Of a stretch of 64,000 bases of DNA, positions 6,947 through 26,909 are shown piece by piece. The stretch's first letter is position 1. Each line of letters opens with the position of its first letter. Source of the stretch: Acidobacteriota bacterium (lineage in GTDB: Bacteria > Acidobacteriota > UBA890 > WLXD01); assembly GCA_036012155.1 (NCBI GenBank), contig DASCOT010000236.1:40655-104654 (forward strand). The letters are read 5' to 3'. The notes beneath the pieces are model-generated. The model saw only the letters and a program-made list of their open reading frames with translations. It was not told the origin of the DNA and searched no databases. A program made the position numbers and the translations under genes.

Positions 6947-6949
6947 GGC

Positions 6950-7429: not shown

Positions 7430-7557
7430 GACAATGTAGCGTCGCGGGCGTAGCGGCGCACGCGTCGCACTCGGCCCCTCCTGACGCTTCCATTCCTTGG
7501 GTTGACCACTCCGCCGTGGGATTTGCGGCGACAGGCCCTCCGCCTGACAATCGAGCC

Positions 7558-7794
7558 ATGTCTGAGTGGATCGAGATCGCATTGCAGCGGAGCACCATTG
7601 TGCGCGGCCTCAAGTTCGCCGCTGTAGTGGGAGTGGTGCTTGTCGCCATCAACCACGGCGAAGCCATCGTCGCGGGAAACATCGACGGCAAGCGCCTGTT
7701 GAGGATGGCCCTCACCGTTGCCGTGCCGTACCTGGTGTCGACCTTCTCAACCTGCGGAGCCAAGCTAGAAGCGCGGCGCCATCAGGGCCAGTAA
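7558..7794 (+). CDS. NrtS-like small membrane protein (putative nitrate/nitrite transporter NrtS family)
   Basis: MSEWIEIALQRSTIVRGLKFAAVVGVVLVAINHGEAI...VPYLVSTF matches recalled NrtS family pattern. Confidence 0.5.
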   Translation: MSEWIEIALQRSTIVRGLKFAAVVGVVLVAINHGEAIVAGNIDGKRLLRMALTVAVPYLVSTFSTCGAKLEARRHQGQ

Positions 7795-7912
7795 GCCACC
7801 GCACGAGTCTCCGAGGCGCATATGCGAGCCTGCGGGACACCGTGCTATCGTGGATTACTCTGGCTGTCTCCCGCCTGGCCTCCATCCCTCCAAGAGCTCC
7901 CAACTTGACGCC

Positions 7913-9076
7913 ATGAGTGTGATCGAGCCCCGTACATCTGCGCTTACGCCAGCGCTCGGTGAAGCTCGCTGGCGCGCCATGGTCGGGGCCGTCGACGTCT
8001 GTTTCGGTGTTGGCGAAAGGGCTCGCCTGCCGTCGATAGTCAGTGAGCTCGGCGCCCGTCGTCCGCTCATCATCACCGACCCCGGCGTGCGGGCGACGGG
8101 CCTCATCGACGAGCTCGGCGACGCGTTGACACAACTCGGGTGCGCTTGTGCCGTCTTCGATGGTGTCGAGGCGAATCCGAGCACGGCGTGCGTCGAGTCT
8201 GGCGTGACGGCTGCCCGACGGCACGAGATCGACCTGCTTATCGGGTTCGGTGGGGGAAGTCCCATGGATACGGCGAAGGGAGTCAACTTCGTATACAGCA
8301 ACGGCGGCTGTATGGAGGACTATGAGGGAACAGGGAAGGCGCATGCTGAGATGCTGCCGTCGATCGGCGTGCCGACCACCGCCGGAACCGGCAGCGAGGC
8401 GCAATCGTACGCGCTGATCTCGCGGCTGGACGACCATCGAAAGATGGCATGCGGCGATCCGGGAGCCCGTTTTCGAGCCACCGTTCTCGATCCTGGCGTC
8501 ACCGGAACGGTCCCTCGCGACGTACGGGTTGCCACCGGTATCGACGCCATCTCGCATGCCGTCGAAAGCCTTGTCAGCACGCGAGCCAACCCGATCTCGC
8601 GACTCTATAGCCGTGAGGCGTGGCACCTGCTATCGGAGGGCTTCGAGCCGGCGGTGAGCGCACCGGACGAGCTCGAGGCACGGGGCCAGATGCTGCTCGG
8701 CGCGCACCTGGCGGGGGCGGCAATCGAGCGTTCCATGCTCGGCGCCGCACACGCCTGCGCCAACCCGTTGACCGCCCGCTTCGACATCACCCACGGCATC
8801 GCCGTCGGGATCATGCTGCCGCACGTGGTGCGCTACAACCTGGCGAGTGATGCGGCCGCTGCCGAGTACGATGTGCTCGAGGTCAACGACCTTCCCGGAC
8901 TCCTCACCGCAATGCAGGAAAGCAGCGGCGTGGCACTACGGCTTCGCGCCCACGGCGTGCCGCAGGCGAGCCTCGGCAAGCTCGCGGAGGAGGCTGCACA
9001 ACAATGGACCGCCAACTACAACCCGCGTCCGGTGGACGCCCCCGAGCTGTTGAGCATCTATGAGTCGGCATACTGA
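7913..9076 (+). CDS. Iron-containing (group III) alcohol dehydrogenase
   Basis: GGGSPMDTAKG NAD-binding motif and Fe-ADH His-rich region (HAVESL...HACANPL...HG). Confidence 0.85.
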   Translation: MSVIEPRTSALTPALGEARWRAMVGAVDVCFGVGERARLPSIVSELGARRPLIITDPGVRATGLIDELGDALTQLGCACAVFDGVEANPSTACVESGVTAARRHEIDLLIGFGGGSPMDTAKGVNFVYSNGGCMEDYEGTGKAHAEMLPSIGVPTTAGTGSEAQSYALISRLDDHRKMACGDPGARFRATVLDPGVTGTVPRDVRVATGIDAISHAVESLVSTRANPISRLYSREAWHLLSEGFEPAVSAPDELEARGQMLLGAHLAGAAIERSMLGAAHACANPLTARFDITHGIAVGIMLPHVVRYNLASDAAAAEYDVLEVNDLPGLLTAMQESSGVALRLRAHGVPQASLGKLAEEAAQQWTANYNPRPVDAPELLSIYESAY

Positions 9077-10202
9077 GTCCATGAATCGCGCCCGACGCCG
9101 GCGCACGATCAGCTGGATTGCCTGCGCCTGTAGCGTCGTGATGGCGAGCGGCATCGCGCACGGCCGGGCCGACGACGCGTGGCGTGTATTCCGCGGCAAC
9201 GCCGAGCTCACGGGCACGGCCAATATCGAGATTCCGTCGGCGCCGGAGCCACGATGGGTCTTCTCGGCCGAGGACAGCATCGAGTCGAGCGCCGCGATTG
9301 CCGATGGCCGGGTCTTCGTGGGCTCACTCGATGGCCGTTTGTACGCACTGGATCTCGACAGCGGCGCCGAGCTGTGGCGCTTCGAGACCGACATCGAGAT
9401 CCGATCGTCGCCTTCAGTCTTCGGCGACACCGTCTACTTCGGCGATGAATCGGGAACGTTCCACGCGCTCGATGTCGAGAGCGGCGCCGAGCGGTGGTCG
9501 TACCAGACGGGTGGTGGAATCGTCTCGGCAGCAAACTACGCGGACGGGCTGCTGATCTTCGGTTCGTACGACAACCACCTGTACGCTGTGGCGGCCACAG
9601 ACGGCACGCTGGTCTGGAGCATCGAGACCGGCGGCTACGTGAACGGGACACCGGCGATCGTCGGCGACACGGTGATCTCGGTCGGATGCGACGGTGTGCT
9701 GCGGCTCGTGTCATTGCGCGACGGCGCGTTGCTCGGCAGCATCGAGATCGGTGCATACGTCGCCGCGAGCCCGGCAATTAGCCAGGGCGTAGCCTATTTC
9801 GGCACCTATGAGAACCAGGTTCTCGCAGTGAGCCTGGCGGGCGAGCGACGCTGGGCCTACGAGCACCCGAAGCGCAAGTTTCCGTACTATTCATCGGCAG
9901 CGATTACGGATGGCGTGCTGGTGGTCGGCGGGCGCGACAAGATGGTGCACGGGATCGATCCGGCTACGGGAGGGCCACTCTGGACCCACACGAGCGGAGC
10001 GCGCGTCGACTCCTCGCCCGTCATCGTCGGTGATCGGGTCTTTGTAGGCGGAAGCTCCGGCGACCTGGTGGCGCTCGACGTGCGGTCGGGCGAGGTCTTG
10101 TGGCAATTCGAGACCGGGTCGTCGATCGTCGCGTCACCAAGCTTGGCCTCGGGGCGCCTCATAATCGGAACAGAGGACGGCGACCTCTACTGCTTCGGGT
10201 GA
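9060..10202 (+). CDS. Secreted PQQ-repeat (BamB-like) beta-propeller protein
   Basis: Signal peptide then repeated 'DG-LYALD---G-ELWRF-T' PQQ-type blades. Confidence 0.75.
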   Translation: MSRHTESMNRARRRRTISWIACACSVVMASGIAHGRADDAWRVFRGNAELTGTANIEIPSAPEPRWVFSAEDSIESSAAIADGRVFVGSLDGRLYALDLDSGAELWRFETDIEIRSSPSVFGDTVYFGDESGTFHALDVESGAERWSYQTGGGIVSAANYADGLLIFGSYDNHLYAVAATDGTLVWSIETGGYVNGTPAIVGDTVISVGCDGVLRLVSLRDGALLGSIEIGAYVAASPAISQGVAYFGTYENQVLAVSLAGERRWAYEHPKRKFPYYSSAAITDGVLVVGGRDKMVHGIDPATGGPLWTHTSGARVDSSPVIVGDRVFVGGSSGDLVALDVRSGEVLWQFETGSSIVASPSLASGRLIIGTEDGDLYCFG

Positions 10203-10207
10203 GATCG

Positions 10208-11581
10208 ATGGGCCAGGAAGCTCTGCCTGAGACCGACTCTTCGCCCGAGTTCCACGCCGAGCCGGCGACATCCCGGGCACAGCGAGAGGCGACCGACGTC
10301 GGCAGTGTCTTCGTGTCCAACTATCCGCCGTTCTCACAGTGGACGGCCGATCAATTGCCGGCGTACCGGAAGGCACTAGATACTCCTGCCTCCGGCGACG
10401 CCCCGCCCCTGGGGCTGTATCTGCATATCCCGTTCTGCCGCAAGCGCTGTAAGTTCTGCTATTTCCGTGTCTATACGGACAAGAACGCTGATGAGGTCGA
10501 GGTTTACTGCGATGCGATCGCCCAAGAGATCGATCGCTACGCCGGCGCCGCGGCGATCGCCGGACGCCCCTTACGGTTCGTGTACTTCGGCGGCGGAACC
10601 CCGTCCTACGTTGCCGCGAAGCACCTGCGAGAGCTCGTGACCCGGGTGCGGGCGTCGCTACCCTGGGACCAAGTCGACGAAGTCACCTTCGAGTGTGAGC
10701 CCGGCACCCTCAGTCGCACCAAGCTCGAGACCGTTCGCGAGCTCGGGATCACCCGGCTGAGCCTCGGCGTGGAGAACTTCAACGACGAGATTCTGCAGCT
10801 CAATGGCCGCGCTCACGTGAGCAAGGAGATCTTCCGTGTCCTGCCCTGGATTCGGGACCTGGCGTTCGATCAGCTCAACATCGACCTCATCGCCGGAATG
10901 ATCGGCGAGACTTGGGAGAGCTGGCGCGACACCGTGCAGCAGGCGATCGACACCCACCCGGACTCGGTAACCGTCTATCAGTTGGAGTTGCCCTACAACA
11001 CCCGCTTCTCGAAGCAGTTCCTGGAGGGCAGGTTAGCGGTGCCGCTGGCCGACTGGGCGCAGAAACGCGCATGGCACGACTATGCCATCGAGCAGCTGCA
11101 CGCAGCCGGATTCGAGATCTCGAGCGCCTACACCATGGTACGTGCCGACAAGCGATGCGACTTCGTCTATCGCGACGCCTTGTGGCAGGGGGCCGACATG
11201 TTGGGCACCGGCGTGTCCTCGTTCGGACATCTGAGCGGCATCCACGTGCAGAACACCGCGAGCTGGGGCGACTACCTCGAATCGGTAGACAGCGGCAGGC
11301 TGCCGCTCGAGCGCGCCTTTGTCACGAGCCCCGAGGACCGATTGATCCGCGAGACCATCTTGCAACTCAAGCGGGGAGCGCTCAGCCGGGCGCATTTCCT
11401 GGAAAAGTTCGGCGTCGATATTCTGGAGCGCTTCGCCCCGGCATGGGAGCGACTGCGGTCGCACCAGATGTTGCGCGTCAGCGACGACGGTGTCGAGCTG
11501 ACGCGGCAAGGATTGCTGCAGGCTGACGCCTTGTTGCCGGAGCTCTACGACGAGCGTTATCGCGACGCTCGGTACACGTAG
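10208..11581 (+). CDS. Radical SAM HemN/HemW/ChuW-family protein (coproporphyrinogen III oxidase-like)
   Basis: CRKRCKFC (CxxxCxxC) radical SAM cluster motif, GGGTPS, HemN-like C-terminal domain; 457 aa from ATG 10208. Confidence 0.8.
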   Translation: MGQEALPETDSSPEFHAEPATSRAQREATDVGSVFVSNYPPFSQWTADQLPAYRKALDTPASGDAPPLGLYLHIPFCRKRCKFCYFRVYTDKNADEVEVYCDAIAQEIDRYAGAAAIAGRPLRFVYFGGGTPSYVAAKHLRELVTRVRASLPWDQVDEVTFECEPGTLSRTKLETVRELGITRLSLGVENFNDEILQLNGRAHVSKEIFRVLPWIRDLAFDQLNIDLIAGMIGETWESWRDTVQQAIDTHPDSVTVYQLELPYNTRFSKQFLEGRLAVPLADWAQKRAWHDYAIEQLHAAGFEISSAYTMVRADKRCDFVYRDALWQGADMLGTGVSSFGHLSGIHVQNTASWGDYLESVDSGRLPLERAFVTSPEDRLIRETILQLKRGALSRAHFLEKFGVDILERFAPAWERLRSHQMLRVSDDGVELTRQGLLQADALLPELYDERYRDARYT

Positions 11582-11594
11582 TCGGGGCGAACCG

Positions 11595-12890
11595 ATGAGC
11601 CGCCGCGCGACCGGCAATGCCGCTGCGATGGTCATCATGCCGGTGGCCGCACTGCTGACGACTCTGACCGGCACGACGCCGCGACACCAGCCGGGTTACC
11701 TGGCCGAGGCCGCCGCGCAGAGGTCGGGCCCGGCGCACGACTGGCCCCAGTTGCGAGGTCCGAATGCCGACGGCATCTCGCCACAGACCGGCCTCCTGAC
11801 CACCTGGCCCGAGTCGGGGCCGCGCGAGATCTGGCGAGTGCCCCTCGGCAAGGGGTTTTCAGGGATCTCCGTTGTCGGCGAGCGCGCCTTCACGATGTTC
11901 GGGCGAGGCGGCACGTACCTGGGGACCTTCGATACGGCGACCGGCGACGAGTTGTGGCAGCTTCGCATCGACGAGATGTACCGCAACAGCTCGGGCGATG
12001 GGCCGCGATCCACTCCGACAGTCGACGACGGCACCGTCTACGTGATCAGCGGACGGGGGATCATCGCCGCAGTGGACGCCGAGACAGGTGCCACGAGGTG
12101 GCGGCACAATCTGCGCGAGGAGTATCGTGCGGCAGGGCCGAACTGGGGTTTCTCCGCCTCGCCCAAGGTGTACGGCAACCTAATCCTCGTCGAGGCCGGT
12201 GCGCCCGACGCAGCGTTGTTGGCGTTTGACAAGCGTACAGGCGAGGAAGTTTGGCGAGCCACGGGAGATCCGCCAGGGTATTCAACGCCACTGCTGGTGC
12301 AGATCGGCGGTCTACCACAAGCGGTCTTCTTCACCGGCCGTCGCATCGCCGGTGTGAATCCCAGTAGTGGTGCGCTCCTGTGGGATATGCCTTGGGAAAC
12401 TACATTCGGCGTCAACGCGGCAACGCCGGTCTTCGTACCGCCCGATAAGATCTTCGTTTCCTCCGGCTACGGCGTCGGCGCGGCTTTGCTTCGCGTCGTC
12501 CCGGGTAGCGCCGGCGGGGTGGAAACCGTGTGGCGCACCCGCGAGATGAAGAACCAGTTCAGCAGCTCCGTGCTGGTCGACGACTATATCTACGGCTTCG
12601 ACAACTCTATGCTGGAGTGCATCGAGTTGAGCCGGGGTGAGAGGATGTGGCGGGCACGCGGGCACGGACAAGGCTCATTGCTGTACGCAGATGATCACCT
12701 GATTGTCTTGGGTGACCGCGGCTCATTGGCGCTCGTCAAGCTCAGTCCCGGGGAGTACCTCCAGGTCTCAAGGGCGCAGGTGTTCCGCGGCCGGACTTGG
12801 ACTGCACCTACACTGGCAAACGGAGTCCTGTACCTACGCGATGAGCAGGAGCTCGTGGCTCTCGAGATCACCGAGGCGACGATTTCCTGA
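11595..12890 (+). CDS. Secreted PQQ-repeat (BamB-like) beta-propeller protein
   Basis: Signal peptide; repeated PQQ-like blades (GTVYVISGRGIIAAVDAETGATRWRH etc.). Confidence 0.75.
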   Translation: MSRRATGNAAAMVIMPVAALLTTLTGTTPRHQPGYLAEAAAQRSGPAHDWPQLRGPNADGISPQTGLLTTWPESGPREIWRVPLGKGFSGISVVGERAFTMFGRGGTYLGTFDTATGDELWQLRIDEMYRNSSGDGPRSTPTVDDGTVYVISGRGIIAAVDAETGATRWRHNLREEYRAAGPNWGFSASPKVYGNLILVEAGAPDAALLAFDKRTGEEVWRATGDPPGYSTPLLVQIGGLPQAVFFTGRRIAGVNPSSGALLWDMPWETTFGVNAATPVFVPPDKIFVSSGYGVGAALLRVVPGSAGGVETVWRTREMKNQFSSSVLVDDYIYGFDNSMLECIELSRGERMWRARGHGQGSLLYADDHLIVLGDRGSLALVKLSPGEYLQVSRAQVFRGRTWTAPTLANGVLYLRDEQELVALEITEATIS

Positions 12891-12983
12891 ACGAAACAAC
12901 CGAGAGAAAACGGCGGTGCGTTGCGCACCGTCACCGGCGAAGCTGATCCCCGACCCTGGAATCCGATCGTGCGCATCTTGAAG

Positions 12984-16369: not shown

Positions 16370-16419
16370 GGCCACCCGGAGCAACAAGCGCCAAAGCCAT
16401 TGAGAAACGGTCCGACGAG

Positions 16420-16647
16420 GTGCGCATGAGTGGCAACCGCTTGAAACTGTACGGCCTCCTGGTGCTCCTCTATGTGCTCCACACAGATTGGTGGCTCTGG
16501 AGTGACGGTCGTGTCCGGTTCGGGCTCCCCATGGGGCTGCTGTACCACCTTGCCTACATGTTGGCGACAGCGGTGGTGATGTACATGCTCGTCAAGCAAG
16601 CATGGCCAAGCCACCTCGAAATCGATGATGCCGGAGACGATCGATGA
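16420..16647 (+). CDS. DUF3311-like small membrane protein (SSS-symporter-associated)
   Basis: 75-aa two-TM protein immediately upstream of and overlapping an SSS symporter, the typical DUF3311/SSS pairing. Confidence 0.5.
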   Translation: MRMSGNRLKLYGLLVLLYVLHTDWWLWSDGRVRFGLPMGLLYHLAYMLATAVVMYMLVKQAWPSHLEIDDAGDDR

Positions 16648-18113: not shown

Positions 18114-18140
18114 CCGATCGTGTACCGCGCGGCACACTAG

Positions 18141-19439
18141 ATGCGGATCGCCTACATAACGGCCGGCGCGGCAGGGATGTACTGCGGCAGCTGTCTGCAT
18201 GACAACACGTTGGCGGCGGCGTTGCAGAAGGACGGACACGAGGCCGCGCTGGTCCCCATGTACACCCCCATCCGTACCGACGAGGACGACGTGAGTATCG
18301 ACCGCGTCTTCTATGGTGCGGTCAACGTATACTTGGAGCAGCGCTGGAAGTTCTTCCGGCACAGCCCCGCCATCCTGCACTGGCTACTCGATCGACCGGC
18401 CCTGCTCAGAAACGTCTCGCGCCTGGCGGGATCAAGCGCCACCCAGGGTAAAGAGCTCGGGGCACTGGCCTTGTCGGTGCTACGCGGCGAAGACGGCCGT
18501 CAGCGAAGCGAGCTCGAACGTCTGGTCGCGTGGCTACGCGATGACTTCAAGCCGCAGATCGTTCACATTACCAACGCTTTGTTGCTGGGCTTGGCGCGGA
18601 CGCTCAAGCGCGAGCTTCAGGTGCCAGTGCTATGCGGCGTGCAGGGGGAGGACCTCTTCATCGACGAGATGGTGGAGCCTTACAGGACGCGTTTCGTAGC
18701 GGAGCTGCGAACGCACGCCATCGATGTCGACGGGTTTCTGGCACCGAATCGCTACTACGCCGACCATGTGCGGAGCTACCTGGCGACGTCAGCCGAGAAA
18801 ATTCGCGTAGTGCCCCTGGGGATCACCCTGCCGGGGCACGAGATGCGGATTCGGTCTGCCGACGAGCCGTACACGATCGGCTTCCTTGCCAGGCTCTGTC
18901 CGGAAAAAGGACTGCATCGGCTGGTTTCGGCCTTCAGCCAGTTGGCGGGACGCGAGACACACCCAGACGTGCGCTTGCGTGTTGCCGGGTACATGGCTGC
19001 GCGCGACGCCGCGTACGTCGACGAGCAGCAACGTCTTATAGCCGACTGGGGGCTGGCCGACCGTGTCGATTGGATCGGCGAGGTCGATCGCGATGCCAAG
19101 ATGCGATTCCTGAGCTCGATCGACGTGCTGTGCCTTCCGACAGTCTACCGAGAGTCGAAGGGGTTGCCCGTGCTGGAGGCAATGGCCAGCGCCGTGCCGG
19201 TGATCGTACCGGCACACGGCAGTTTTCCGGAGTTGATCGAATGGACCGGCGGCGGGGTACTGGTGGATCCGGAGGGGAATGAGGCGCTGGTAGATGCGCT
19301 CAGCGCGTTGATGCGCGATCCTGAGCGAGGCCAGGAGCTCGGCCGGACTGGCCGCCAGGCAGTCCACCGTGAGTTCTCGGCCGAGGCCATGGCTGCAGCA
19401 ACGCTGCGCGAGTACGAGCGCTGGGTATGCACGAGCTGA
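18141..19439 (+). CDS. Glycosyltransferase family 4
   Basis: C-terminal GT4 core (ESKGLPVLEAMASAVPVIVPAHGSFPELIE) with the conserved E-x7-E region. Confidence 0.8.
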   Translation: MRIAYITAGAAGMYCGSCLHDNTLAAALQKDGHEAALVPMYTPIRTDEDDVSIDRVFYGAVNVYLEQRWKFFRHSPAILHWLLDRPALLRNVSRLAGSSATQGKELGALALSVLRGEDGRQRSELERLVAWLRDDFKPQIVHITNALLLGLARTLKRELQVPVLCGVQGEDLFIDEMVEPYRTRFVAELRTHAIDVDGFLAPNRYYADHVRSYLATSAEKIRVVPLGITLPGHEMRIRSADEPYTIGFLARLCPEKGLHRLVSAFSQLAGRETHPDVRLRVAGYMAARDAAYVDEQQRLIADWGLADRVDWIGEVDRDAKMRFLSSIDVLCLPTVYRESKGLPVLEAMASAVPVIVPAHGSFPELIEWTGGGVLVDPEGNEALVDALSALMRDPERGQELGRTGRQAVHREFSAEAMAAATLREYERWVCTS

Positions 19440-19846
19440 CGATTCAACGAAAAGTCGAGTTCTCAGACACCGACATGGCCGGTATCGTGCATTTCTCTCG
19501 GCTGATCGTGTTCATGGAGAATGCCGAGCACGCCTTCATCGAGGCCCTCGGTGCGAGCGTCCACATGGACCACGACGGCATTCGTCTCGGCTGGCCGCGG
19601 GTCGCAGTCGAGGCACAGTTCAAGTCGCCGGCGCGCTTCAACGACGTGGTCGACATCCACCTGCGCGTGCTGAGCAAGAAGAGCAAGGCAATAACGTACG
19701 GGTTCTCGATTCGCGTTGGCGAGCGTCTCGTCGGCACGGGCTCGATGACCTCGGTGTGCTGCGCAATGGAGGAATCGGGTCCACGGGCCATCGAGATCCC
19801 GGCGTTCATTGCGGATCAAATCCAGGAAGCCGGGAGCATCGAATAG
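19427..19846 (+). CDS. Hotdog-fold acyl-CoA thioesterase (4HBT/YbgC-like)
   Basis: 139-aa protein, EFSDTDMAGIVHFSRL N-terminal catalytic region typical of 4HBT thioesterases; overlaps GT4 stop. Confidence 0.7.
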   Translation: MHELTIQRKVEFSDTDMAGIVHFSRLIVFMENAEHAFIEALGASVHMDHDGIRLGWPRVAVEAQFKSPARFNDVVDIHLRVLSKKSKAITYGFSIRVGERLVGTGSMTSVCCAMEESGPRAIEIPAFIADQIQEAGSIE

Positions 19847-19884
19847 AAGTCCACCAGCCCGGCACGAGGGTACGGAGAGGTCGG

Positions 19885-20553
19885 TTGGACCTGCAGGTCG
19901 CACACGTCGCAAAGGAGTTCGAGATCGCTGGCACGGCCGTGCCAGTGCTCGAAGACGTGTCGTTCGACGTCGCGGCCGGGAGCTCGATCGCGATCATGGG
20001 CCCGTCCGGCTCGGGCAAGAGCACGGTGCTGCACATCATCGGCACGCTCGAGCCACCGACTGACGGCGATGTGAGGATCGGCAGCCACGACCCGTTTGCG
20101 CTGAGCGAGCCGGCGATGGCGCGCTTCCGCAACGAATCAATCGGCTTCGTGTTTCAAGATCATCACCTGCTACCACAGTACAGCGTGCTCGAGAACACGC
20201 TGATCCCGACGCTGGCGTTCTCCGGCAAGCCCGCAGGCGAGGAGCGCGCTCGGCAACTGCTGGAGCGCGTCGGGCTGGCGCACCGGCTCGATCATCGACC
20301 GGCGCAGCTGTCGGGTGGGGAGCGTCAGCGGGTAGCGATTGCCCGAGCGCTGATCAACCGACCAGCGCTGCTGCTATGCGATGAGCCCACCGGAAATCTC
20401 GATCATCGAACCGCCGACGCGGCAGCGGAATTGTTGCTCGAACTGCACGAGCAGGAATCCAACGTTCTGGTAGTGGTCACCCATAGCGCGGAGCTGGCGC
20501 AACGCTTCGGACGCCGGCTGGAGTTGCGGGAAGGTCGATGCTACGAGGCCTGA
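19885..20553 (+). CDS. ABC transporter ATP-binding protein (LolD/MacB-type)
   Basis: Walker A GPSGSGKST, signature LSGGERQRVAIARAL, Walker B LLLCDEPTGNLD; probable TTG start at 19885. Confidence 0.85.
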   Translation: MDLQVAHVAKEFEIAGTAVPVLEDVSFDVAAGSSIAIMGPSGSGKSTVLHIIGTLEPPTDGDVRIGSHDPFALSEPAMARFRNESIGFVFQDHHLLPQYSVLENTLIPTLAFSGKPAGEERARQLLERVGLAHRLDHRPAQLSGGERQRVAIARALINRPALLLCDEPTGNLDHRTADAAAELLLELHEQESNVLVVVTHSAELAQRFGRRLELREGRCYEA

Positions 20554-23500
20554 TCCACCATTGGCGCGTCAACGTTGCTGTGGCGCTGGCCGTAGCGGTA
20601 TGCACCGCAGTGCTGACCGGAGCTCTGCTGGTGGGCGATTCGGTTCGCGCCAGCCTCCGTGACCTCACCCTTGACCGGCTGGGGCACATCGACACGTCGC
20701 TGGTCGCGGAGCGTTTCTTCCGCGCCGAGATCGTCGACGAGCTCGTGGCGCTCCCTGCGTTCACCACTGAGTTCGAACGCGTGGCGGGCGCCATTCTGCT
20801 CCGCGGCAACGCCGTCCATGCCGACAGCCGCGCCCGAGCGTCGCAGATCAATGTGTTTGGCATCGACGACACCTTCATCGATTTGTTCGACGAACCGACG
20901 ACCTCGGCGGTCTTCCATAGCCAGGCAGGCTCGGGCCGGCCGGTGATGAGCTTCTCTCGCACCGGCGGGCAGCTGTTCCCGTCCATCGTCATCAACACAT
21001 CGCTGCAGCGCGAACTCGGCGCCGAGGTTGGCGACCAGCTGCTGGTGCGCTTCCGGCTCGGCAGCGAGGTGCCTCGCGACACGCTGTTGGGTAGCCGTGA
21101 GGCGGAGGACATCGTCGGCACGATACGTACGAGTCTCGTCGAGATCGTTCCCGATCGCGGAATCGGCCGCTTCGACCTCAATCCACATCAGGCCTCGCCG
21201 CTGAGCGCCTTCTTGTCACTCGGCGACCTGCAGCGTGCCGTCGAGCAGCAGGGACACATCAACTCCCTGTTGCTGGATCGCCGCGACGACAGCGGTACCG
21301 ACCCCCTGCCGCTGCTGGCCACCGCACTGAGCCTCGCCGACTTCGGCATCGAGCTACGCTCGATCGAGGGTCCCGCGAATGCCGAGCTCATCGAGATCGA
21401 GAGCCAGGAGTTCGTCCTTCGACCAGCGCTCGTCGAGACCATCGAGGCCACGGCGCGCGATCTCCAGGCGCCGGTACAGCGCCTGCAGGCTTATATGTCG
21501 AACGGCTTGCATCTCGACGGTCGCCAAGTTCCCTACTCGATGGTACTGGCCGCAGACGTCGTCGGTGGTGCGGACGGCTCCATGCCGTTCGGACGCCTGG
21601 AGCTGCTCGACGGAACGACGGCGCCTAGGTTGGCCGCAGACGAGATTCTGCTCAACGAGTGGACCGCGACCGAGCTCGACGCATCGGCGGGCGATGAGCT
21701 TCGCATGAGCTACTACGTCGTCGGAATCGATGAGCAGCTGCACACCGAGGAGGCCCTCTTCCGGGTGGCCGGAACCGTTGCGATGCGCGGGCTCGCGGTC
21801 GACGCCGATCTCACTCCGGACTATCCGGGCATCGAGGGTGTCGACAACATCGCCGACTGGGAGCCGCCCTTCCCGGTCGACTTGAACTCCATCCGAGACG
21901 TCGACGAAGAGTACTGGGATGCCTACCGAGGCACTCCGAAGTCCTTCGTCGCTGCGGATACTGGCCGCCGCTTGTGGAGCACGCGCTATGGCGCCACCAC
22001 TTCGGTTCGGGTGGCGGGGCCCGTGAATTCCGACGTGACGACCTTCACCTCTGAGCTGGGCTCGATGCTCCTGGAGCAACTCGATCCAAGCGACTATGGG
22101 TTCCGGTTTGTCGACATCAAGAGCCAGGGCCTCGATGCGGCGGCCGGGGCAACCGATTTCGGTCAGCTGTTCGTCGCATTCAGCTTCTTCCTCATCGTGT
22201 CGGCATTGATGATCGTCAGCCTGCTGTTCAGCCTCGGCATCGAGCAGCGCGGCCGGGAGATCGGGCTGCTTCTGGCGGTTGGTTACCCGCCCGCGCAGGT
22301 ACGCGGCGGGTTCCTCGCCGAGGGGGCACTGGTGGCGGCGGTGGGCGGCGCTGTCGGACTGGTGGCCGCGGTGGTGTATGGAAACCTGATGCTCTGGGGC
22401 TTGCGCACAATCTGGCTAGCTGCCGTCGGCTCGCCGTTGCTGTACCTGCACGTGTTGCCGGCCACTCTGGCGATCGGCCTCGCTATCTCGGCCATTGCAG
22501 CAGTCGGGTCGATTTGGATGACGGTGCGGCGCCTGCGGCGCATGCCGCCAACTCGACTGCTGGCGGGGCTGACTCGGATGCCCGACGCGGCCCGAGAGCA
22601 ACCGCGCCGCCGTTGGTTGGCGCCGACCTGCTTCGCTGCCGCCATCGCCCTACTCGCCTACGCGCTCGCCAGCGACCAGGCGTCCAATCCGGGGATCGCA
22701 TTCGGGATCGGCGCGCTGCTGCTCACCGCGGGACTGGCGGCGTTCGCGACCTGGTGTCGGCGGGCGCGAGGGCGCCTGCGCAGCCCCCGCTTCGCGGCGG
22801 TCAACATGGCTGTTCGAAGCAGCTCATGGAGCCCGAGCCGAAGCATCCTGAGCGTGGCGCTCGTCGCATCGGCATGCTTCGTCATCGTCACCGTGGCCGG
22901 CAACACGCGCGACCCCTCCCGCGAGACACACGTCATCGAGGAAGGCGCCGGCGGTTACGAGCTCATGGCGATTGCCGACGTACCGTTGCACCAGAATCTC
23001 AACGATGCCAGCGGGCGATTCGACCTGGGCTTCGACGCCACCGCCGAGACGCAACTGGAAGATGTGGGAATCTCCCAGCTTCGGCTCGTTCCTGGAGACG
23101 ACGCCAGCTGCCTGAACCTCTATCAGCCGCGTCGACCACGGCTGCTCGGCGTCACGGACGCGCTCATCGACCGCGGTGGCTTCCGCTTCGCAGCCACCAG
23201 CAGCACGCTGACGGTGAATGCCAACCCCTGGGAGCTACTGCGCACCGACCTGGGCCCGGGAGTCGTTCCGGCGATCGGTGATGCCAACTCGATGCAGTGG
23301 ATTCTCAAGTTACCCGTCGACAGCGAGCTGACCATCGAGGACGAGCGTGGCGAGCCACTCACGCTACGACTGGTGGGGACCGTTCAAGAGAGCATCTTTC
23401 AGAGTGAGCTGCTGATCTCGGAGGCCAACCTGCTGCGTTACTTCCCCAGCCGAAGTGGCTTTTCGTATTTCCTCATCGACGCGCCCGAGGGGAGCGACCT

Positions 23501-23981
23501 CGAGGTTGCAGCGGCGCTCGAGGACCGGCTCGAACGGTTTGGTTTCGACGTCACGCGCACGGCAGATCGGATCGCCGGGTTCCTCGTAGTGCAGAACACA
23601 TACCTATCGACCTTTCAGGCACTGGGCGGGTTGGGGCTACTTCTCGGTACCATCGGGCTCGGCCTCGTTCTGGTACGCAACGTGATCGAGCGGCGCGGCG
23701 AGCTCGCCACGCTGCGCGCCTTCGGGTTCCGGCGCTCGTTTCTGTCGCGAATGGTGCTCGCCGAGAGCGCCTTCCTGCTCGCCGTTGGCACGATGATCGG
23801 TAGCGTATCGGCGCTGCTGGCAATCGCTCCGCGGTTTGCGCTGGCTGCAGCCGAGCTGCCGTGGAATACGCTGTTGCCGACGCTTGGCGCGGTGCTGGTG
23901 GTCGGCATGACGGCAAGCCTGGTCGCGGTGATCGGTACCTTGCGTGTCCCGCTCTTGCCAGCGCTCAAGGCCGAGCGCTAG
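20538..23981 (+). CDS. ABC transporter permease, FtsX/MacB-like, unusually large (1147 aa) with extended extracytoplasmic domains
   Basis: N-terminal TM then MacB-like periplasmic domain, FtsX four-helix bundles mid-protein and at C-terminus; overlaps ATPase gene. Confidence 0.8.
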   Translation: MLRGLIHHWRVNVAVALAVAVCTAVLTGALLVGDSVRASLRDLTLDRLGHIDTSLVAERFFRAEIVDELVALPAFTTEFERVAGAILLRGNAVHADSRARASQINVFGIDDTFIDLFDEPTTSAVFHSQAGSGRPVMSFSRTGGQLFPSIVINTSLQRELGAEVGDQLLVRFRLGSEVPRDTLLGSREAEDIVGTIRTSLVEIVPDRGIGRFDLNPHQASPLSAFLSLGDLQRAVEQQGHINSLLLDRRDDSGTDPLPLLATALSLADFGIELRSIEGPANAELIEIESQEFVLRPALVETIEATARDLQAPVQRLQAYMSNGLHLDGRQVPYSMVLAADVVGGADGSMPFGRLELLDGTTAPRLAADEILLNEWTATELDASAGDELRMSYYVVGIDEQLHTEEALFRVAGTVAMRGLAVDADLTPDYPGIEGVDNIADWEPPFPVDLNSIRDVDEEYWDAYRGTPKSFVAADTGRRLWSTRYGATTSVRVAGPVNSDVTTFTSELGSMLLEQLDPSDYGFRFVDIKSQGLDAAAGATDFGQLFVAFSFFLIVSALMIVSLLFSLGIEQRGREIGLLLAVGYPPAQVRGGFLAEGALVAAVGGAVGLVAAVVYGNLMLWGLRTIWLAAVGSPLLYLHVLPATLAIGLAISAIAAVGSIWMTVRRLRRMPPTRLLAGLTRMPDAAREQPRRRWLAPTCFAAAIALLAYALASDQASNPGIAFGIGALLLTAGLAAFATWCRRARGRLRSPRFAAVNMAVRSSSWSPSRSILSVALVASACFVIVTVAGNTRDPSRETHVIEEGAGGYELMAIADVPLHQNLNDASGRFDLGFDATAETQLEDVGISQLRLVPGDDASCLNLYQPRRPRLLGVTDALIDRGGFRFAATSSTLTVNANPWELLRTDLGPGVVPAIGDANSMQWILKLPVDSELTIEDERGEPLTLRLVGTVQESIFQSELLISEANLLRYFPSRSGFSYFLIDAPEGSDLEVAAALEDRLERFGFDVTRTADRIAGFLVVQNTYLSTFQALGGLGLLLGTIGLGLVLVRNVIERRGELATLRAFGFRRSFLSRMVLAESAFLLAVGTMIGSVSALLAIAPRFALAAAELPWNTLLPTLGAVLVVGMTASLVAVIGTLRVPLLPALKAER

Positions 23982-24015
23982 TGGCCGGTAGCACAGTCGG
24001 CAGCAGTGGCGGCCG

Positions 24016-24345
24016 GTGAACGAGGGCGAGCAGAGTGCCTGGCACGAGGTATGGGAGATCGTGCGCCAGATCCCCGCCGGACGGGTGATGAACTACGGGC
24101 AAGTAGCGGTGCTTCACTCCCGGCCGCTGACCGCGCGTGCCGTCGGCTGGGCCATGCACGATTGTCCGGACGATGTGCCGTGGCACCGCGTGGTGAACGT
24201 ACGCGGAGAATGCTCGGCGGATCGCGTAACGGGAGCGACAGGTGGACTCCAGCGGCGTCGGCTCGAGGCAGAGAGTGTGTGCTTCGGGAGCGACGGGCGG
24301 GTAGACATGGCCCGCTACCGGTGGCTACCGGACGAGGAGATCTAG
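24016..24345 (+). CDS. Alkyltransferase-like (ATL) protein, MGMT DNA-binding domain lacking the active-site cysteine
   Basis: 109 aa; Ogt C-domain fold with PWHRVVN in place of PCHRV (Cys to Trp), as in recalled ATL proteins. Confidence 0.7.
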   Translation: MNEGEQSAWHEVWEIVRQIPAGRVMNYGQVAVLHSRPLTARAVGWAMHDCPDDVPWHRVVNVRGECSADRVTGATGGLQRRRLEAESVCFGSDGRVDMARYRWLPDEEI

Positions 24346-24381
24346 GTCGCCAGGCGCCTAGCCAGGCGGAAGGGACAGGCG

Positions 24382-26635: not shown

Positions 26636-26848
26636 CGGGTTCCTCTCGGATCTTGTTGTCAGCGAGAAGCCTACGCTACGACCGACCTGAACAGGTCGCG
26701 ACCCGATAGTTGCGCTTGTCGAAAGTTCATCGAAACACGAAATGCTGAAACTTCTTGCGCCATTTTGGCGAATAAATAGGTGACGGGGGCAACCGAACCC
26801 GGTGGTCGCGCGTCTAACAAAGGGAAGAAGGCAAACGGCAACTACGAA

Positions 26849-26891
26849 GCCCGGGTCGTCGGGCCGGAGCACGGGGGGCTCGACGACCCGG
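26849..26891 (+). other. Perfect 12-bp stem / 19-nt loop hairpin (CCCGGGTCGTCG...CGACGACCCGGG) in leader before small ORF
   Basis: Exact inverted repeat read directly; lies 18 nt upstream of ATG 26910. Confidence 0.6.
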
Positions 26892-26909
26892 GAATTGAAA
26901 GGCAAGCAG

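What the first reader, a model, noticed from the sequence alone, without database searches (positions are those of the whole stretch)
7558..24345. Fourteen co-directional, tightly packed genes forming a putative uptake/modification supercluster
From the NrtS-like gene through the ATL gene, every gene is on the + strand. Gaps are about -17 to +60 nt and several stop/start overlaps occur (9060/9076, 15092/15095, 16644/16647, 19427/19439, 20538/20553). The encoded functions read like a transport-and-processing pathway: Fe-ADH, two periplasmic beta-propellers, a radical SAM enzyme, a TBDR, a halogenase-like flavoenzyme, DUF3311-SSS symporter, GT4, thioesterase, and an ABC exporter with a giant FtsX permease. 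I do not recognise this gene order as a described system.
Basis: partly seen in the sequence, partly recalled or inferred. Interest (0 to 1): 0.6.

Follow-up and report, generated by a model that had tools for sequence, protein, structure and literature searches.

The report
Conserved halogenase-centred twelve-gene transport operon
A real operon-like block of twelve genes, built around a halogenating enzyme and flanked by import and export machinery, is kept in the same order in several bacterial phyla, yet nobody knows what molecule it makes or moves.

Summary
Fourteen + strand genes run from 7558 to 24345, with the stated stop/start overlaps, and − strand genes bound the run on both sides.

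Only twelve of them form a conserved unit: Fe-ADH, propeller 1, HemN-like radical SAM, propeller 2, TonB receptor, flavin-dependent halogenase, DUF3311, SSS symporter, GT4, hotdog thioesterase, LolD-like ATPase and a 1147-aa double-FtsX permease (7913-23981). NrtS and ATL are neighbours found only in close relatives.

Of 52 halogenase-anchored loci with full flanks, 30 carry at least 8 of the 12 genes, always colinear and with tight junctions. They come from Acidobacteriota, Latescibacterota, Gemmatimonadota and Poribacteria. Five of six radical-SAM-anchored loci also contain the halogenase.

Versions in other phyla add a PaaK-like aryl-CoA ligase and, in three lineages, a chorismate pyruvate-lyase directly upstream of the halogenase. 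Many also add an AMP-binding-like/ALDH-like pair.

My best reading, which is inferred, is a non-canonical pathway. It halogenates, C-methylates, redox-tailors and glycosylates a small phenolic carboxylic acid, exports it through a MacB-type pump, and captures precursor or product through the TonB receptor and an MctP-like symporter.

No characterised system matches. A 2026 preprint lists related "Halo_AMP" clusters as orphan.

The parts
7913..9076 (+). Group III iron-containing alcohol dehydrogenase (387 aa, cytoplasmic); first gene of the conserved core
   Evidence: Pfam Fe-ADH 150 bits and ADH_Fe_C 108 bits. All NCBIfam equivalogs score below cut-off; the best is ErcA, 240 against 550. The GGGS.mD and DA..H motifs are conserved in 31 orthologues. 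Present in 29 of 52 full-flank loci.
9060..10202 (+). Periplasmic PQQ_2/BamB-like beta-propeller 1 (380 aa, Sec signal peptide)
   Evidence: Pfam Beta-prop_ACSF4 189 bits (cut-off 133) and PQQ_2 164 bits. Orthologues have Sec-type signal peptides, and the twin-arginine is not conserved. Its start overlaps the Fe-ADH stop by 17 nt.
10208..11581 (+). HemN-like (class C type) radical SAM enzyme (457 aa, cytoplasmic)
   Evidence: Pfam Radical_SAM 85 bits and HemN_C 30 bits. The CRKRCKFC and YFGGGTPS motifs are invariant in 38 orthologues. Best NCBIfam hits are ChuW/HutW at 198 bits (cut-off 400) and HemN at 186 (cut-off 325), so it is no equivalog. PDB hits are HemN 1olt and NocN 9p2u.
11595..12890 (+). 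Periplasmic PQQ_2/BamB-like beta-propeller 2 (431 aa, signal peptide, DWPQxRGP motif); optional in some lineages
   Evidence: Pfam PQQ_2 145 bits. Signal peptides in orthologues. Present in 25 of 52 full-flank loci.
12984..15095 (+). TonB-dependent outer-membrane receptor (703 aa)
   Evidence: Pfam Plug and TonB_dep_Rec_b-barrel. NCBIfam TonB-siderophore subfamily scores 213.8 against cut-off 223.5; the best equivalog-type hit is Fiu at 156 bits. Preceded by the largest internal gap (93 nt), which holds a GC-rich palindrome at 12914-12930.
15095..16369 (+). Flavin-dependent halogenase (424 aa, cytoplasmic); centre of the cluster
   Evidence: Pfam Trp_halogenase 97 bits (cut-off 21). PDB best hits are all halogenases: 8zop 1.7e-65, CndH, Mpy16, Bmp2, PltA, ChlB4, CmlS. 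GGGPAG, Lys76 (aligned with the Lys of CndH's 'PIKRGGTF'), WFWYIP and FIDPIYSSG are invariant in a 15-sequence alignment reaching 57% identity.
16426..16647 (+). DUF3311 small membrane protein, partner of the symporter
   Evidence: Pfam DUF3311 40.5 bits (cut-off 30). An ATGA stop/start overlap joins it to the SSS gene. The same pairing accompanies the MctP pyruvate symporter of S. fredii (PMC9100948).
16644..18113 (+). Sodium:solute symporter family permease (489 aa); optional module in some lineages
   Evidence: Pfam SSF 126 bits. The closest NCBIfam models are PutP, PanF and MctP, all below cut-off. It lies directly downstream of the halogenase in 41 loci and is absent in, for example, L025, L071 and L072.
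18141..19439 (+). GT4 retaining glycosyltransferase (432 aa) with an unusual conserved N-terminal M-x-C-G-x-C-x-H-D-N motif
   Evidence: Pfam Glycos_transf_1 111 bits and Glyco_transf_4. No NCBIfam equivalog. PDB hits cover only the donor-binding C-terminal half: sucrose-phosphate synthase-like, MshA, BshA, PimA. The motif is conserved in 45 orthologues.
19427..19846 (+). YbgC/4HBT-class hotdog acyl-CoA thioesterase (139 aa)
   Evidence: Pfam 4HBT_2 41 bits. PDB hits include 4-hydroxybenzoyl-CoA thioesterases and DHNA-CoA hydrolase. The DTD..GIVHF catalytic-Asp motif is conserved. Its start overlaps the GT4 stop by 13 nt.
19885..20553 (+). LolD/MacB-type ABC ATPase (222 aa; TTG start with GGAGAGG upstream)
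   Evidence: Pfam ABC_tran 125 bits. NCBIfam LolD scores 246.5 against cut-off 307.75; YbbA, MacB and DevA also score below cut-off. Start choice.
20538..23981 (+). Fused double-FtsX permease (1147 aa, about 10 TM) with two large periplasmic domains (about residues 32-535 and 789-1027); last gene of the conserved core
   Evidence: Pfam FtsX, two stretches. Weak LolCE, ADOP, DevC and MacB hits. PDB hits are YtrF and MacB only. Hydropathy profile. Periplasmic motifs are conserved in 28 orthologues. Its start overlaps the ATPase stop by 16 nt.
7558..7794 (+). NrtS-family small membrane protein; in the co-directional run but NOT part of the conserved unit
   Evidence: NCBIfam NrtS 46 bits (cut-off 25). 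Found only in L002, L005, L008 and partly L003 among the 81 loci searched. L001 keeps the cluster without it.
24016..24345 (+). Alkyltransferase-like (ATL) protein; in the co-directional run but NOT part of the conserved unit
   Evidence: Pfam DNA_binding_1 74 bits. PWHRV replaces PCHR. Found downstream of FtsX only in L001-L006 and L010. In L081 the cluster ends with a − strand HTH gene.

Best explanation
The twelve genes from 7913 to 23981 are one conserved operon-like unit for making and trafficking a small molecule. It is not a chance run of neighbours.

**Shown**
- The gene set, the order and the tight spacing are kept across phyla.
- The central enzyme has every sequence hallmark of a flavin-dependent halogenase, of the clade that works on thioester-tethered pyrrole or phenol substrates.
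- Five enzymes lack signal peptides and transmembrane segments. Two propellers carry signal peptides.
- The transporters are two importer types (TonB receptor; DUF3311+SSS) and one exporter type (MacB/LolCDE-like ABC).

**Inferred pathway**
1. A small phenolic or aryl monocarboxylic acid of the 4-hydroxybenzoate type is the scaffold. In other phyla it is made in situ by a chorismate pyruvate-lyase and activated by a PaaK-like CoA ligase, both encoded directly upstream of the halogenase. In this organism those two genes are missing from the cluster. The acid is then either imported (TonB receptor, then the MctP-like symporter) or activated by enzymes encoded elsewhere.
2. The halogenase chlorinates or brominates the ring of the thioester. 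The HemN-like radical SAM enzyme adds a carbon substituent.
3. The hotdog thioesterase releases the acid. The Fe-ADH does aldehyde/alcohol redox tailoring, together with an AMP-binding-like/ALDH-like pair in other phyla.
4. The GT4 enzyme glycosylates the product.
5. The LolD-like ATPase and double-FtsX permease expel it to the periplasmic side. There the propellers bind or process it, and the TonB receptor allows recapture.
For: **Conservation**
- 30 of 52 full-flank loci anchored on the halogenase carry at least 8 of the 12 genes, all colinear, at 43-63% mean identity outside the closest relatives.
- Median junction gaps run from -28 to +74 nt.
- The independent radical SAM anchor gives 5 of 6 loci with the halogenase. 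One of them (L082/L083) has the halogenase relocated behind the ABC ATPase and, within the DNA held, lacks only the FtsX permease gene.
- Flanking genes differ between lineages.

**Halogenase identity**
- Shown: **Aromatic-acid scaffold**
- A PaaK-family ligase lies directly upstream of the halogenase in 19-20 loci.
- An Rv2949c-like chorismate pyruvate-lyase (PF01947, above cut-off) lies directly upstream of that ligase in L062, L069 and L052/L084.
- The thioesterase is of the 4-hydroxybenzoyl-CoA class.
- The DUF3311+SSS pairing is that of a monocarboxylate symporter.
- The receptor's best equivalog-type hit is the catecholate receptor Fiu.

**Exporter type**
- FtsX/LolD/MacB/DevA-type hits.

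**Localisation**
-.

**Operon structure**
- No internal promoter or terminator signal above chance, and no riboswitch.
Against: - No product, substrate or transcript has been observed. Every chemical step is inferred from family membership.
- The window's own cluster has no CoA ligase, chorismate lyase, carrier protein or flavin reductase, and none lies elsewhere in the 64 kb.
- The chorismate lyase is present in only three lineages.
- No equivalog-level match exists for any of the twelve proteins.
- The roles of the two to four periplasmic propellers and of the TonB receptor are guesses.
- Identities of 50-65% across phyla are unusually high for a secondary-metabolite cluster. They fit a housekeeping function better.
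- In most Poribacteria loci the halogenase homologue sits alone beside secretin/pilus genes. In one KSB1 locus the left half and the symporter occur without halogenase, GT4 or ABC genes nearby. The modules can therefore work apart.
Confidence: 0.4

Rival explanations
1. Periplasmic cofactor system. The cytoplasmic enzymes build a new small redox or metal-binding cofactor from an aromatic acid. The ABC/FtsX pump delivers it to the periplasm, the PQQ-like propellers are the apo-proteins that use it, and the TonB receptor and symporter salvage it. This would parallel PQQ with its quinoproteins and the PqqU receptor.
For: Two to four signal-peptide propellers are interleaved with, and apparently translationally coupled to, the cytoplasmic enzymes in every version. 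Cross-phylum identity is high, as for a housekeeping function. An Fe-ADH and an ALDH-like gene travel with them. There is a weak PqqU hit for the receptor.
Against: The propellers are short BamB-like PQQ_2 proteins of 380-430 aa, not dehydrogenase-sized, and show no obvious catalytic motif beyond blade repeats. A glycosyltransferase is not expected for a cofactor. There is no direct evidence of any ligand.
Confidence: 0.15
2. Envelope glycolipid or surface-molecule biogenesis. The thioesterase, reductases and GT4 make a glycosylated lipid-like molecule. The Lol/Dev-like ABC-FtsX pump extracts it from the inner membrane, and the propellers and the TonB-type barrel pass it to the outer membrane.
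For: The ATPase is closest to LolD, and also hits DevA, the glycolipid exporter ATPase. The permease hits LolCE and DevC weakly. The thioesterase is YbgC-like. The propellers are BamB-like. A conserved small 5-TM protein sits next to GT4 in 22 relatives. The preprint notes hits to BrtI of the halogenated glycolipid bartoloside cluster.
Against: Flavin-dependent halogenases need electron-rich aromatic or enol substrates, not alkyl chains (established enzymology). The relatives' added genes are an aryl-CoA ligase and a chorismate lyase. No membrane-fusion or TolC-like partner is present. The symporter has no role in this model.
Confidence: 0.15
3. Small halogenated peptidic natural product, as proposed for the sponge 'Halo_AMP' clusters. 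The PaaK-like enzyme would form amide bonds between amino-acid-derived units, and the halogenase would brominate them.
For: The preprint groups related clusters under this idea and notes BagE/YtkN-like ligases. The nearest relatives, L001-L004, are Acidobacteriota MAGs from what appears to be the same UUID-named assembly series as the Poribacteria and Latescibacterota MAGs in the table, and those two phyla are known sponge symbionts. One locus has an NRPS just upstream.
Against: The window cluster has no ligase, NRPS, precursor peptide or peptidase. The cluster also occurs in MAGs not labelled as symbiont phyla, for example SMAG-series Thermoanaerobaculia and Acidobacteria bacterium Mor1. Their habitats were not checked. 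The cluster is far more conserved than host-specific natural-product clusters.
Confidence: 0.1
4. Uptake and catabolism or detoxification of an exogenous aromatic compound. This is the first reader's 'uptake/modification' reading: TonB receptor and symporter bring it in, the enzymes transform it, and the pump removes the conjugate.
For: Two importer types are present. Fe-ADH, ALDH-like and PaaK-like enzymes also occur in aromatic catabolism. Glycosylation plus efflux is a known detoxification logic (general knowledge).
Against: There are no ring-cleavage, beta-oxidation or dehalogenase genes. The halogenase motifs point to adding a halogen. The chorismate lyase in relatives means the scaffold is made, not scavenged.
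Confidence: 0.1
5. No single system: two or three unrelated operons that happen to lie head-to-tail.
For: Modules can occur apart, as in KSB1 L086 and most Poribacteria loci. The SSS pair, propeller 2 and the TBDR are each dispensable in some lineages. A 93-nt gap with a hairpin precedes the TBDR.
Against: Colinearity holds in 30 of 30 multi-gene loci across at least four phyla while flanks change. A variant with the halogenase relocated retains the rest of the core set apart from the FtsX permease, which may lie beyond the end of the locus. Overlapping stop/start codons join cytoplasmic, periplasmic and membrane components.
Confidence: 0.05

Closest known systems
'Halo_AMP' orphan gene clusters of sponge microbiomes (bioRxiv 10.64898/2026.08.03.742642, August 2026)
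   Same: Flavin-dependent halogenase together with PQQ-like, radical SAM, glycosyltransferase, thioesterase, TonB-dependent transporter and ABC genes. Reported from Acidobacteriota, Latescibacterota and Poribacteria. No MIBiG match and product unknown.
   Different: Their detection rule requires an AMP-binding gene, which the window cluster lacks. They treat the clusters as host-specific natural-product clusters for brominated peptides. Here the twelve-gene core also appears in MAGs not labelled as symbiont phyla (habitats not checked), with fixed order. Correspondence of individual clusters could not be checked because the figures and supplements are not held.
Chorismate-lyase + halogenase routes to halogenated phenols (bmp and ambigol pathways) and the pyrrolyl-S-carrier halogenases PltA/Mpy16/Bmp2, CndH
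   Same: The halogenase is closest in sequence to this clade. In three lineages a chorismate pyruvate-lyase and an aryl-acid-activating enzyme sit directly upstream of it. A thioesterase follows. The pathway logic itself is from my own knowledge.
   Different: There is no carrier protein, P450 or decarboxylating brominase. The window version lacks the lyase and the ligase. It adds the Fe-ADH, HemN-like rSAM, propellers, TonB receptor, symporter, GT4 and MacB-type pump.
Xanthomonadin / flexirubin (aryl-polyene) pigment clusters
   Same: A hydroxybenzoate-type starter, an aryl-CoA/ACP ligase (the relatives' ligase hits the FlxY model at 155 bits), a CndH-type halogenase, a 4HBT thioesterase, a glycosyltransferase and envelope export genes. 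The cluster content is from my own knowledge.
   Different: There are no ketosynthase, ACP, ketoreductase or dehydratase genes anywhere in the cluster. The exporter is MacB-type, not MMPL/LolA-like.
iroA (salmochelin) locus logic: tailoring glycosyltransferase + ABC exporter + hydrolases + TonB receptor without the scaffold synthetase
   Same: A cassette that tailors, exports and recaptures a small aromatic (catecholate) molecule whose scaffold genes lie elsewhere. The receptor here is nearest to siderophore/Fiu-type models.
   Different: No protein is homologous at family level: GT4 rather than the IroB type, MacB-type rather than the IroC type. No Fur box was found, and there is no evidence of metal binding.
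YbbA-YbbP / LolCDE / MacB type VII ABC transporters
   Same: A LolD/YbbA-like ATPase (246 and 194 bits) with a fused double-FtsX, roughly 10-TM permease bearing large periplasmic domains.
   Different: All scores are below every equivalog cut-off. The permease is 1147 aa, with conserved periplasmic motifs not seen in solved structures. No fusion-protein or outer-membrane duct partner is present.

Membership tests
Flavin-dependent halogenase (protein 15095-16369) | Pfam Trp_halogenase domain above the gathering score | tested here: met
   97.2 bits against cut-off 21
Flavin-dependent halogenase (protein 15095-16369) | GxGxxG FAD motif, WxWxIP motif and the catalytic lysine | tested here: met
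   GGGPAG, W221-F-W-Y-I-P226 and K76 are invariant in alignment A1. K76 aligns with the Lys of CndH's 'PIKRGGTF'.
Flavin-dependent halogenase (protein 15095-16369) | Closer to halogenases than to related monooxygenases or maturases (QhpG, LodB, UbiH, GG reductase) | tested here: met
   The top 19 PDB sequences are all halogenases except 3nix, an uncharacterised flavoprotein. The first different enzyme type, GG reductase, appears at 2.6e-12. NCBIfam CmlS scores 206 bits against QhpG 147 and LodB 110, all below cut-off.
Flavin-dependent halogenase (protein 15095-16369) | Halogenating activity with a flavin reductase partner | not testable with these tools
   No flavin reductase gene was recognised in the cluster. 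Activity needs an enzyme assay.
HemN-like (class C) radical SAM enzymes (protein 10208-11581) | CxxxCxxC cluster motif, GGGTP second-SAM motif and HemN_C domain | tested here: met
   The CRKRCKFC and FGGGTPS motifs are invariant. Radical_SAM scores 84.8 bits and HemN_C 30.3 bits, above cut-off 24.
HemN / HemW / ChuW-HutW equivalogs | Score above the NCBIfam equivalog cut-off | tested here: not met
   ChuW/HutW 198 against 400; HemN 186 against 325; HemW 160 against 205; STM4012 180 against 380
TonB-dependent siderophore receptor (protein 12984-15095) | Plug + 22-strand barrel domains; TIGR01783 cut-off; iron (Fur) regulation | tested here: inconclusive
   Plug and barrel domains are present. 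TIGR01783 scores 213.8, just under 223.5. No Fur-box match at up to 3 mismatches.
MacB/LolCDE-type (type VII) ABC exporter | FtsX permease domains with a large periplasmic domain, plus a LolD/MacB-class ATPase | tested here: met
   Two FtsX stretches. Periplasmic loops of about 500 and 240 aa. The ATPase is nearest to LolD, YbbA and MacB.
LolCDE lipoprotein-release system / tripartite MacAB-TolC pump | Equivalog scores for LolD/LolCE; adjacent membrane-fusion protein | tested here: not met
   LolD 246.5 against 307.75; LolCE 24.8 against 362. No HlyD/MFP gene was found in the cluster in the window or in relatives.
MctP-type monocarboxylate symporter with DUF3311 partner | Adjacent DUF3311 + SSS genes; MctP equivalog score | tested here: inconclusive
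   The pair is present with an ATGA overlap, and the pairing is documented for MctP. MctP scores only 43 bits against cut-off 625; PutP 117 and PanF 98 are also below cut-off.
'Halo_AMP' cluster pseudoclass (preprint rule: halogenase + AMP-binding gene) | Both a halogenase and an AMP-binding enzyme in the cluster | tested here: not met
   The halogenase is present. There is no AMP-binding gene in the cluster, and no homologue of the relatives' ligases anywhere in the 64-kb window. The rule is met in orthologous clusters L023, L029, L038, L061, L069, L078, L084 and L088.
Canonical NRPS / PKS / RiPP biosynthetic cluster | Core synthetase or synthase, carrier protein, or precursor peptide | tested here: not met
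   No such Pfam domain occurs in any of the fourteen genes. The intergenic gaps are too short for a precursor ORF.
Aryl-polyene (xanthomonadin/flexirubin) cluster | Ketosynthase/ACP/KR/DH polyene machinery | tested here: not met
   Absent in the window and in annotated relatives

The most novel reading that the evidence does not exclude
A flavin-dependent halogenase works here in a housekeeping-like, vertically conserved pathway shared by at least four phyla. The operon would make, export and salvage a previously unknown halogenated, glycosylated aromatic small molecule. That molecule would be a cofactor or metallophore used in the periplasm by its own dedicated family of PQQ-like beta-propeller proteins, in effect a new PQQ-like cofactor-plus-apoprotein system.
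Probability: 0.15. Interest if true: 0.85.

Novelty: new variant of a known kind. Interest (0 to 1): 0.62.

Why it matters
Halogenases are normally seen as decorations of lineage-specific antibiotics. Here one sits at the centre of a twelve-gene block whose order, spacing and sequences (about 50-65% identity) are kept from Acidobacteriota to Latescibacterota, Gemmatimonadota and Poribacteria. That level of conservation points to an important, unrecognised physiological role for an organohalogen in largely uncultured phyla.

The block has no canonical scaffold enzyme, so standard genome-mining rules miss it. The only published rule that catches its relatives would miss this version.

Defining the twelve-gene core, its optional modules and the chorismate-lyase/aryl-CoA-ligase clue yields a concrete substrate hypothesis that can be tested. 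It also gives a list of loci from which to clone the cluster.

Tried and rejected
- **Promoter/terminator scan**: no promoter-like site, and terminator-like sites at chance level. It gives no information on the transcript structure.
- **Rfam at E ≤ 1 across 6500-25000**: nothing, so no riboswitch clue to the ligand.
- **Fur-box search**: nothing.
- **Literature searches on combinations of the parts**: no paper. A search for PDB code 8ZOP returned an irrelevant hit, so the best structural match remains undescribed to me.
- **Symporter as a halide (NIS-like) importer:** rejected. PDB hits are SGLT, SMVT and SiaT, not NIS, and NCBIfam points to the PutP/PanF/MctP types.
- **Flavoenzyme as a QhpG/LodB-type protein-cofactor maturase, with the rSAM, propeller and ABC genes echoing the qhp operon:** rejected. 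The halogenase motifs are invariant, halogenases dominate the PDB hits, and there is no small-subunit gene.
- **Tat export of the propellers** (suggested by RRRR in the window protein): rejected, because the twin-arginine is not conserved in orthologues.
- **The 194-aa gene upstream of the halogenase in L082 as another chorismate lyase:** not supported.
- **Poribacteria context as a functional clue:** unrelated secretin/pilus, PhyH and TPR genes.
- **Preprint supplementary tables:** not held.
- **HGT signal:** GC3 is uniform and there is only a mild GC dip at 15-19 kb.

Full report
**1. What is in the sequence**

Pfam and NCBIfam scans assign them as follows:

| Coordinates | Gene |
|---|---|
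| 7558-7794 | NrtS-family small membrane protein |
| 7913-9076 | Group III Fe-alcohol dehydrogenase |
| 9060-10202 | PQQ_2/BamB-like propeller 1 |
| 10208-11581 | HemN-like radical SAM enzyme |
| 11595-12890 | Propeller 2 |
| 12984-15095 | TonB-dependent receptor |
| 15095-16369 | Trp_halogenase-family flavoprotein |
| 16426-16647 | DUF3311 |
| 16644-18113 | Sodium:solute symporter |
| 18141-19439 | GT4 glycosyltransferase |
| 19427-19846 | YbgC/4HBT hotdog thioesterase |
| 19885-20553 | LolD-like ABC ATPase |
| 20538-23981 | 1147-aa permease with two FtsX domains |
| 24016-24345 | Alkyltransferase-like protein (PWHRV in place of PCHR) |

- The largest gaps are 118 nt (NrtS to Fe-ADH) and 93 nt (propeller 2 to TBDR). 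The second contains a GC-rich palindrome at 12914-12930.
- The one correction to the description is that the radical SAM gene lies between the two propellers.
- − strand genes bound the block on both sides.
- GC3 is 0.73-0.84 in every called frame, which supports the gene calls.
- A consensus scan finds no sigma-70-like promoter and only a chance-level number of terminator-like hairpins. Rfam finds nothing.

**2. Is the arrangement conserved?**

I aligned the flavoprotein with fourteen homologues (A1). I used that alignment to fetch 80 loci from one genome per GTDB species, with 10 kb on each side, and then searched all window proteins against them with tblastn.

- Of the 52 loci with full flanks, 30 carry at least 8 of the 12 genes from Fe-ADH to FtsX, and all 30 are colinear with the window.
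- By record title these are Acidobacteriota (several classes, including Thermoanaerobaculia, Polarisedimenticolia and Multivoradales), Latescibacterota, Gemmatimonadetes, one Poribacteria MAG, and unclassified MAGs.
- Mean identities outside the four closest relatives are 43-63%.
- Junction spacing is tight everywhere, with medians from -28 to +74 nt.
- The flanking genes PhzF, GNAT, PLP decarboxylase and Ada are kept only in the closest relatives (L001-L008). ATL is kept in L001-L006 and L010, and NrtS in three or four loci. In L081 the cluster is bounded by unrelated genes.
- The conserved unit is therefore twelve genes, 7913-23981.

To avoid anchor bias I repeated the test from the radical SAM protein.

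- Of six neighbourhoods, five contain the halogenase.
- One of these, from a 'Deferribacteres' MAG, has the halogenase moved behind the ABC ATPase. It keeps the rest of the core set except the FtsX permease gene, which may lie beyond the end of the locus. A relocated gene with the rest of the set retained is good evidence for a functional link.
- The sixth locus (KSB1) has only the Fe-ADH to TBDR part plus the symporter.
- Most Poribacteria loci have the halogenase alone, next to secretin/pilus genes.
- The unit is therefore modular. The symporter pair, propeller 2 and the TBDR are each dispensable in some lineages.

**3. What the parts are**

*Halogenase.* The flavoprotein is a halogenase by every sequence criterion I could test.
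- Trp_halogenase scores above its cut-off.
- The best solved-structure matches are all halogenases. They belong to the clade acting on carrier-tethered pyrrole or phenol substrates: 8zop, CndH, Mpy16, Bmp2, PltA, ChlB4 and CmlS.
- GxGxxG, WxWxIP, the catalytic lysine (aligned with the lysine of CndH's 'PIKRGGTF') and FxDPxxSSG are invariant across the family.

*Radical SAM enzyme.* It has the CxxxCxxC and GGGTP motifs and a HemN_C domain. It falls below the cut-offs of HemN, HemW, ChuW/HutW and STM4012. It is a separate HemN-like family. By analogy with class C radical SAM enzymes (established knowledge) it most likely transfers a methyl or methylene group to an sp2 carbon.

*Localisation.* The Fe-ADH, rSAM, halogenase, GT4 and thioesterase have no predicted membrane segments. 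Both propellers and their orthologues have Sec-type signal peptides.

*Permease.* It has about ten membrane segments and two large, well-conserved periplasmic domains. With the LolD/YbbA/MacB/DevA-like ATPase it is a MacB-type (type VII) ABC system, a class known only as exporters or extractors. No membrane-fusion partner is present.

*Symporter pair.* The DUF3311 + SSS pairing is the architecture found at the MctP pyruvate symporter locus of Sinorhizobium fredii (PMC9100948).

*TonB receptor.* It scores just below the siderophore-receptor subfamily cut-off, and its best equivalog-type hit is the catecholate receptor Fiu.

No protein reaches an equivalog-level assignment.

**4. Clues from versions in other phyla**

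Clustering all ORFs of the 80 loci and reading annotated neighbourhoods shows genes that the window lineage lacks.
- A PaaK-family aryl-CoA ligase lies directly upstream of the halogenase in 19-20 loci.
- A very conserved AMP-binding-like protein (362 aa, 70-82% identity between phyla) and an ALDH-like protein (about 477 aa) lie upstream of the Fe-ADH in 20 and 26 loci. One or two further propellers often precede them.
- A 5-TM protein with no Pfam hit lies next to GT4 in 22 loci.
- In three independent lineages (Gemmatimonadetes L062, Poribacteria L069, and L052/L084) an Rv2949c-like chorismate pyruvate-lyase lies directly upstream of the ligase-halogenase pair. It scores above the Pfam cut-off.
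- L084 also has a TPP-dependent decarboxylase.
- The fullest version (L088) has 17 co-directional genes.

Chorismate lyase makes 4-hydroxybenzoate. An aryl-CoA ligase, a thioester-type halogenase and a 4-hydroxybenzoyl-CoA-class thioesterase then form a coherent chemical sequence. The chemistry is established knowledge; its application here is inference.

**5. Most likely mechanism**

*Shown:* a conserved, operon-like, modular unit that joins five cytoplasmic tailoring enzymes, two periplasmic propellers, two importer types and one exporter type.

*Inferred:*
1. A small phenolic monocarboxylic acid is handled as a CoA thioester.
2. It is halogenated by the flavoenzyme and C-alkylated by the rSAM enzyme.
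3. It is released by the thioesterase.
4. It is redox-tailored by the Fe-ADH, with an acid-to-aldehyde reduction step supplied by the AMP-binding-like/ALDH-like pair where present.
5. It is glycosylated by GT4.
6. It is expelled by the ABC/FtsX pump.
7. The propellers bind or process it in the periplasm.
8. The TBDR and the MctP-like symporter bring precursor or product back in.

Because the window lineage has lost the lyase, the ligase and the reductase pair from the cluster, it may depend on imported precursor or on genes elsewhere. I put about 0.4 on this model as a whole. I put much more, about 0.85, on the narrower claim that the twelve genes are one functional unit.

**6. Rivals**

- *Periplasmic cofactor system with the propellers as apo-proteins.* It explains the interleaved propellers and the housekeeping-like conservation, but it has no direct support.
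- *Envelope glycolipid export (Lol/Dev-like).* It fits the pump, the thioesterase and GT4. It does not fit a halogenase that needs aromatic substrates, nor the lyase and ligase in relatives.
- *The preprint's 'small halogenated peptide' idea.* It lacks any peptide-forming gene in this version.
- *Catabolism or detoxification.* It lacks ring-cleavage genes.
- *Chance juxtaposition.* The synteny data effectively exclude it.

**7. Comparison with what is known**

No characterised system has this content.
- The nearest description is the orphan 'Halo_AMP' pseudoclass of a 2026 preprint on sponge metagenomes. It lists halogenase + AMP-ligase clusters with PQQ-like, rSAM, GT, TE, TonB and ABC genes in Acidobacteriota, Latescibacterota and Poribacteria, with no product. 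The window cluster fails that study's detection rule because it has no AMP-binding gene.
- By enzyme logic the closest are the chorismate-lyase/halogenase routes to halogenated phenols and the halogenated aryl-polyene pigment clusters. This cluster has no carrier protein, ketosynthase or P450.
- By trafficking logic it resembles the iroA salmochelin cassette (tailoring GT, exporter, TonB receptor, scaffold made elsewhere), without homology.

**8. Verdict**

I class it as a new variant of a known kind, namely halogenase-centred small-molecule clusters with dedicated transport. Its conservation across phyla is unusual and its product is unknown. Interest is 0.62.

Noticed in passing
window 6950-7582 (-): The GNAT gene directly upstream and divergent from the block scores above the NCBIfam equivalog cut-off for the arsenic-resistance N-acetyltransferase ArsN2 (138 bits, cut-off 125). 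The match starts at residue 74, so the true start is probably near 7429.
   Followed up: partly
window 24016-24345 (+) and 25793-26974 (-): Two alkyltransferase-fold genes flank a PLP-dependent decarboxylase (24382-25800, -). One is an ATL with Trp in place of the catalytic Cys (PWHRV). The other is an Ada-like AraC-HTH + MGMT protein with an intact PCHR. In L005/L006 the ATL and Ada genes are directly adjacent.
   Followed up: partly
window 12890-12984: This is the largest gap inside the conserved core (93 nt). It holds a GC-rich palindrome at 12914-12930 (CGGTGCGCAACGCACCG on the − strand). The propeller 2 to TBDR junction also has the largest median gap in relatives (74 nt). It could be a processing or attenuation site.
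   Followed up: no
L084 1973-3061; L082 4371-5438; 20 loci in all: An AMP-binding-like protein of about 362 aa, upstream of the Fe-ADH in other phyla, is 70-82% identical between Acidobacteriota, Latescibacterota, Poribacteria and a 'Deferribacteres' MAG. That is far more conserved than any other cluster protein. Its only family match is a weak Pfam AMP-binding hit, just below the gathering score in L084 (29.4 against 29.9 bits), and NCBIfam gave none for the L067 orthologue. It is absent from the window.
   Followed up: partly
L087 2462-7193: In one relative whose cluster, like the window's, starts at the Fe-ADH, two Transposase_mut genes sit directly upstream. They occupy the place where other phyla have the AMP-binding-like/ALDH-like pair, which hints at how the short version arose.
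   Followed up: no
L085 1-1400: A 2413-aa NRPS and an MFS transporter end immediately upstream of a full version of the cluster in a JGI metagenome contig. This may be coincidence or an additional module.
   Followed up: no
window 18141-19439 (GT4), residues 13-22: The usual glycine-rich N-terminal motif of GT4 enzymes is replaced by a conserved M-x-C-G-x-C-x-H-D-N motif with two conserved cysteines, seen across 45 orthologues. Only the donor-binding half matches solved structures.
   Followed up: partly
window 6035-6946 (-): A PhzF-family isomerase-like gene (218 bits) lies upstream. Close relatives L001-L003 carry a second, 35-38% identical copy next to it.
   Followed up: no
L084 3413-7710: One Poribacteria-type version inserts a TPP-dependent decarboxylase and a creatininase-family gene between the AMP-binding-like gene and the Fe-ADH. 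This is consistent with an arylpyruvate to aldehyde branch, but it was seen in a single locus.
   Followed up: no
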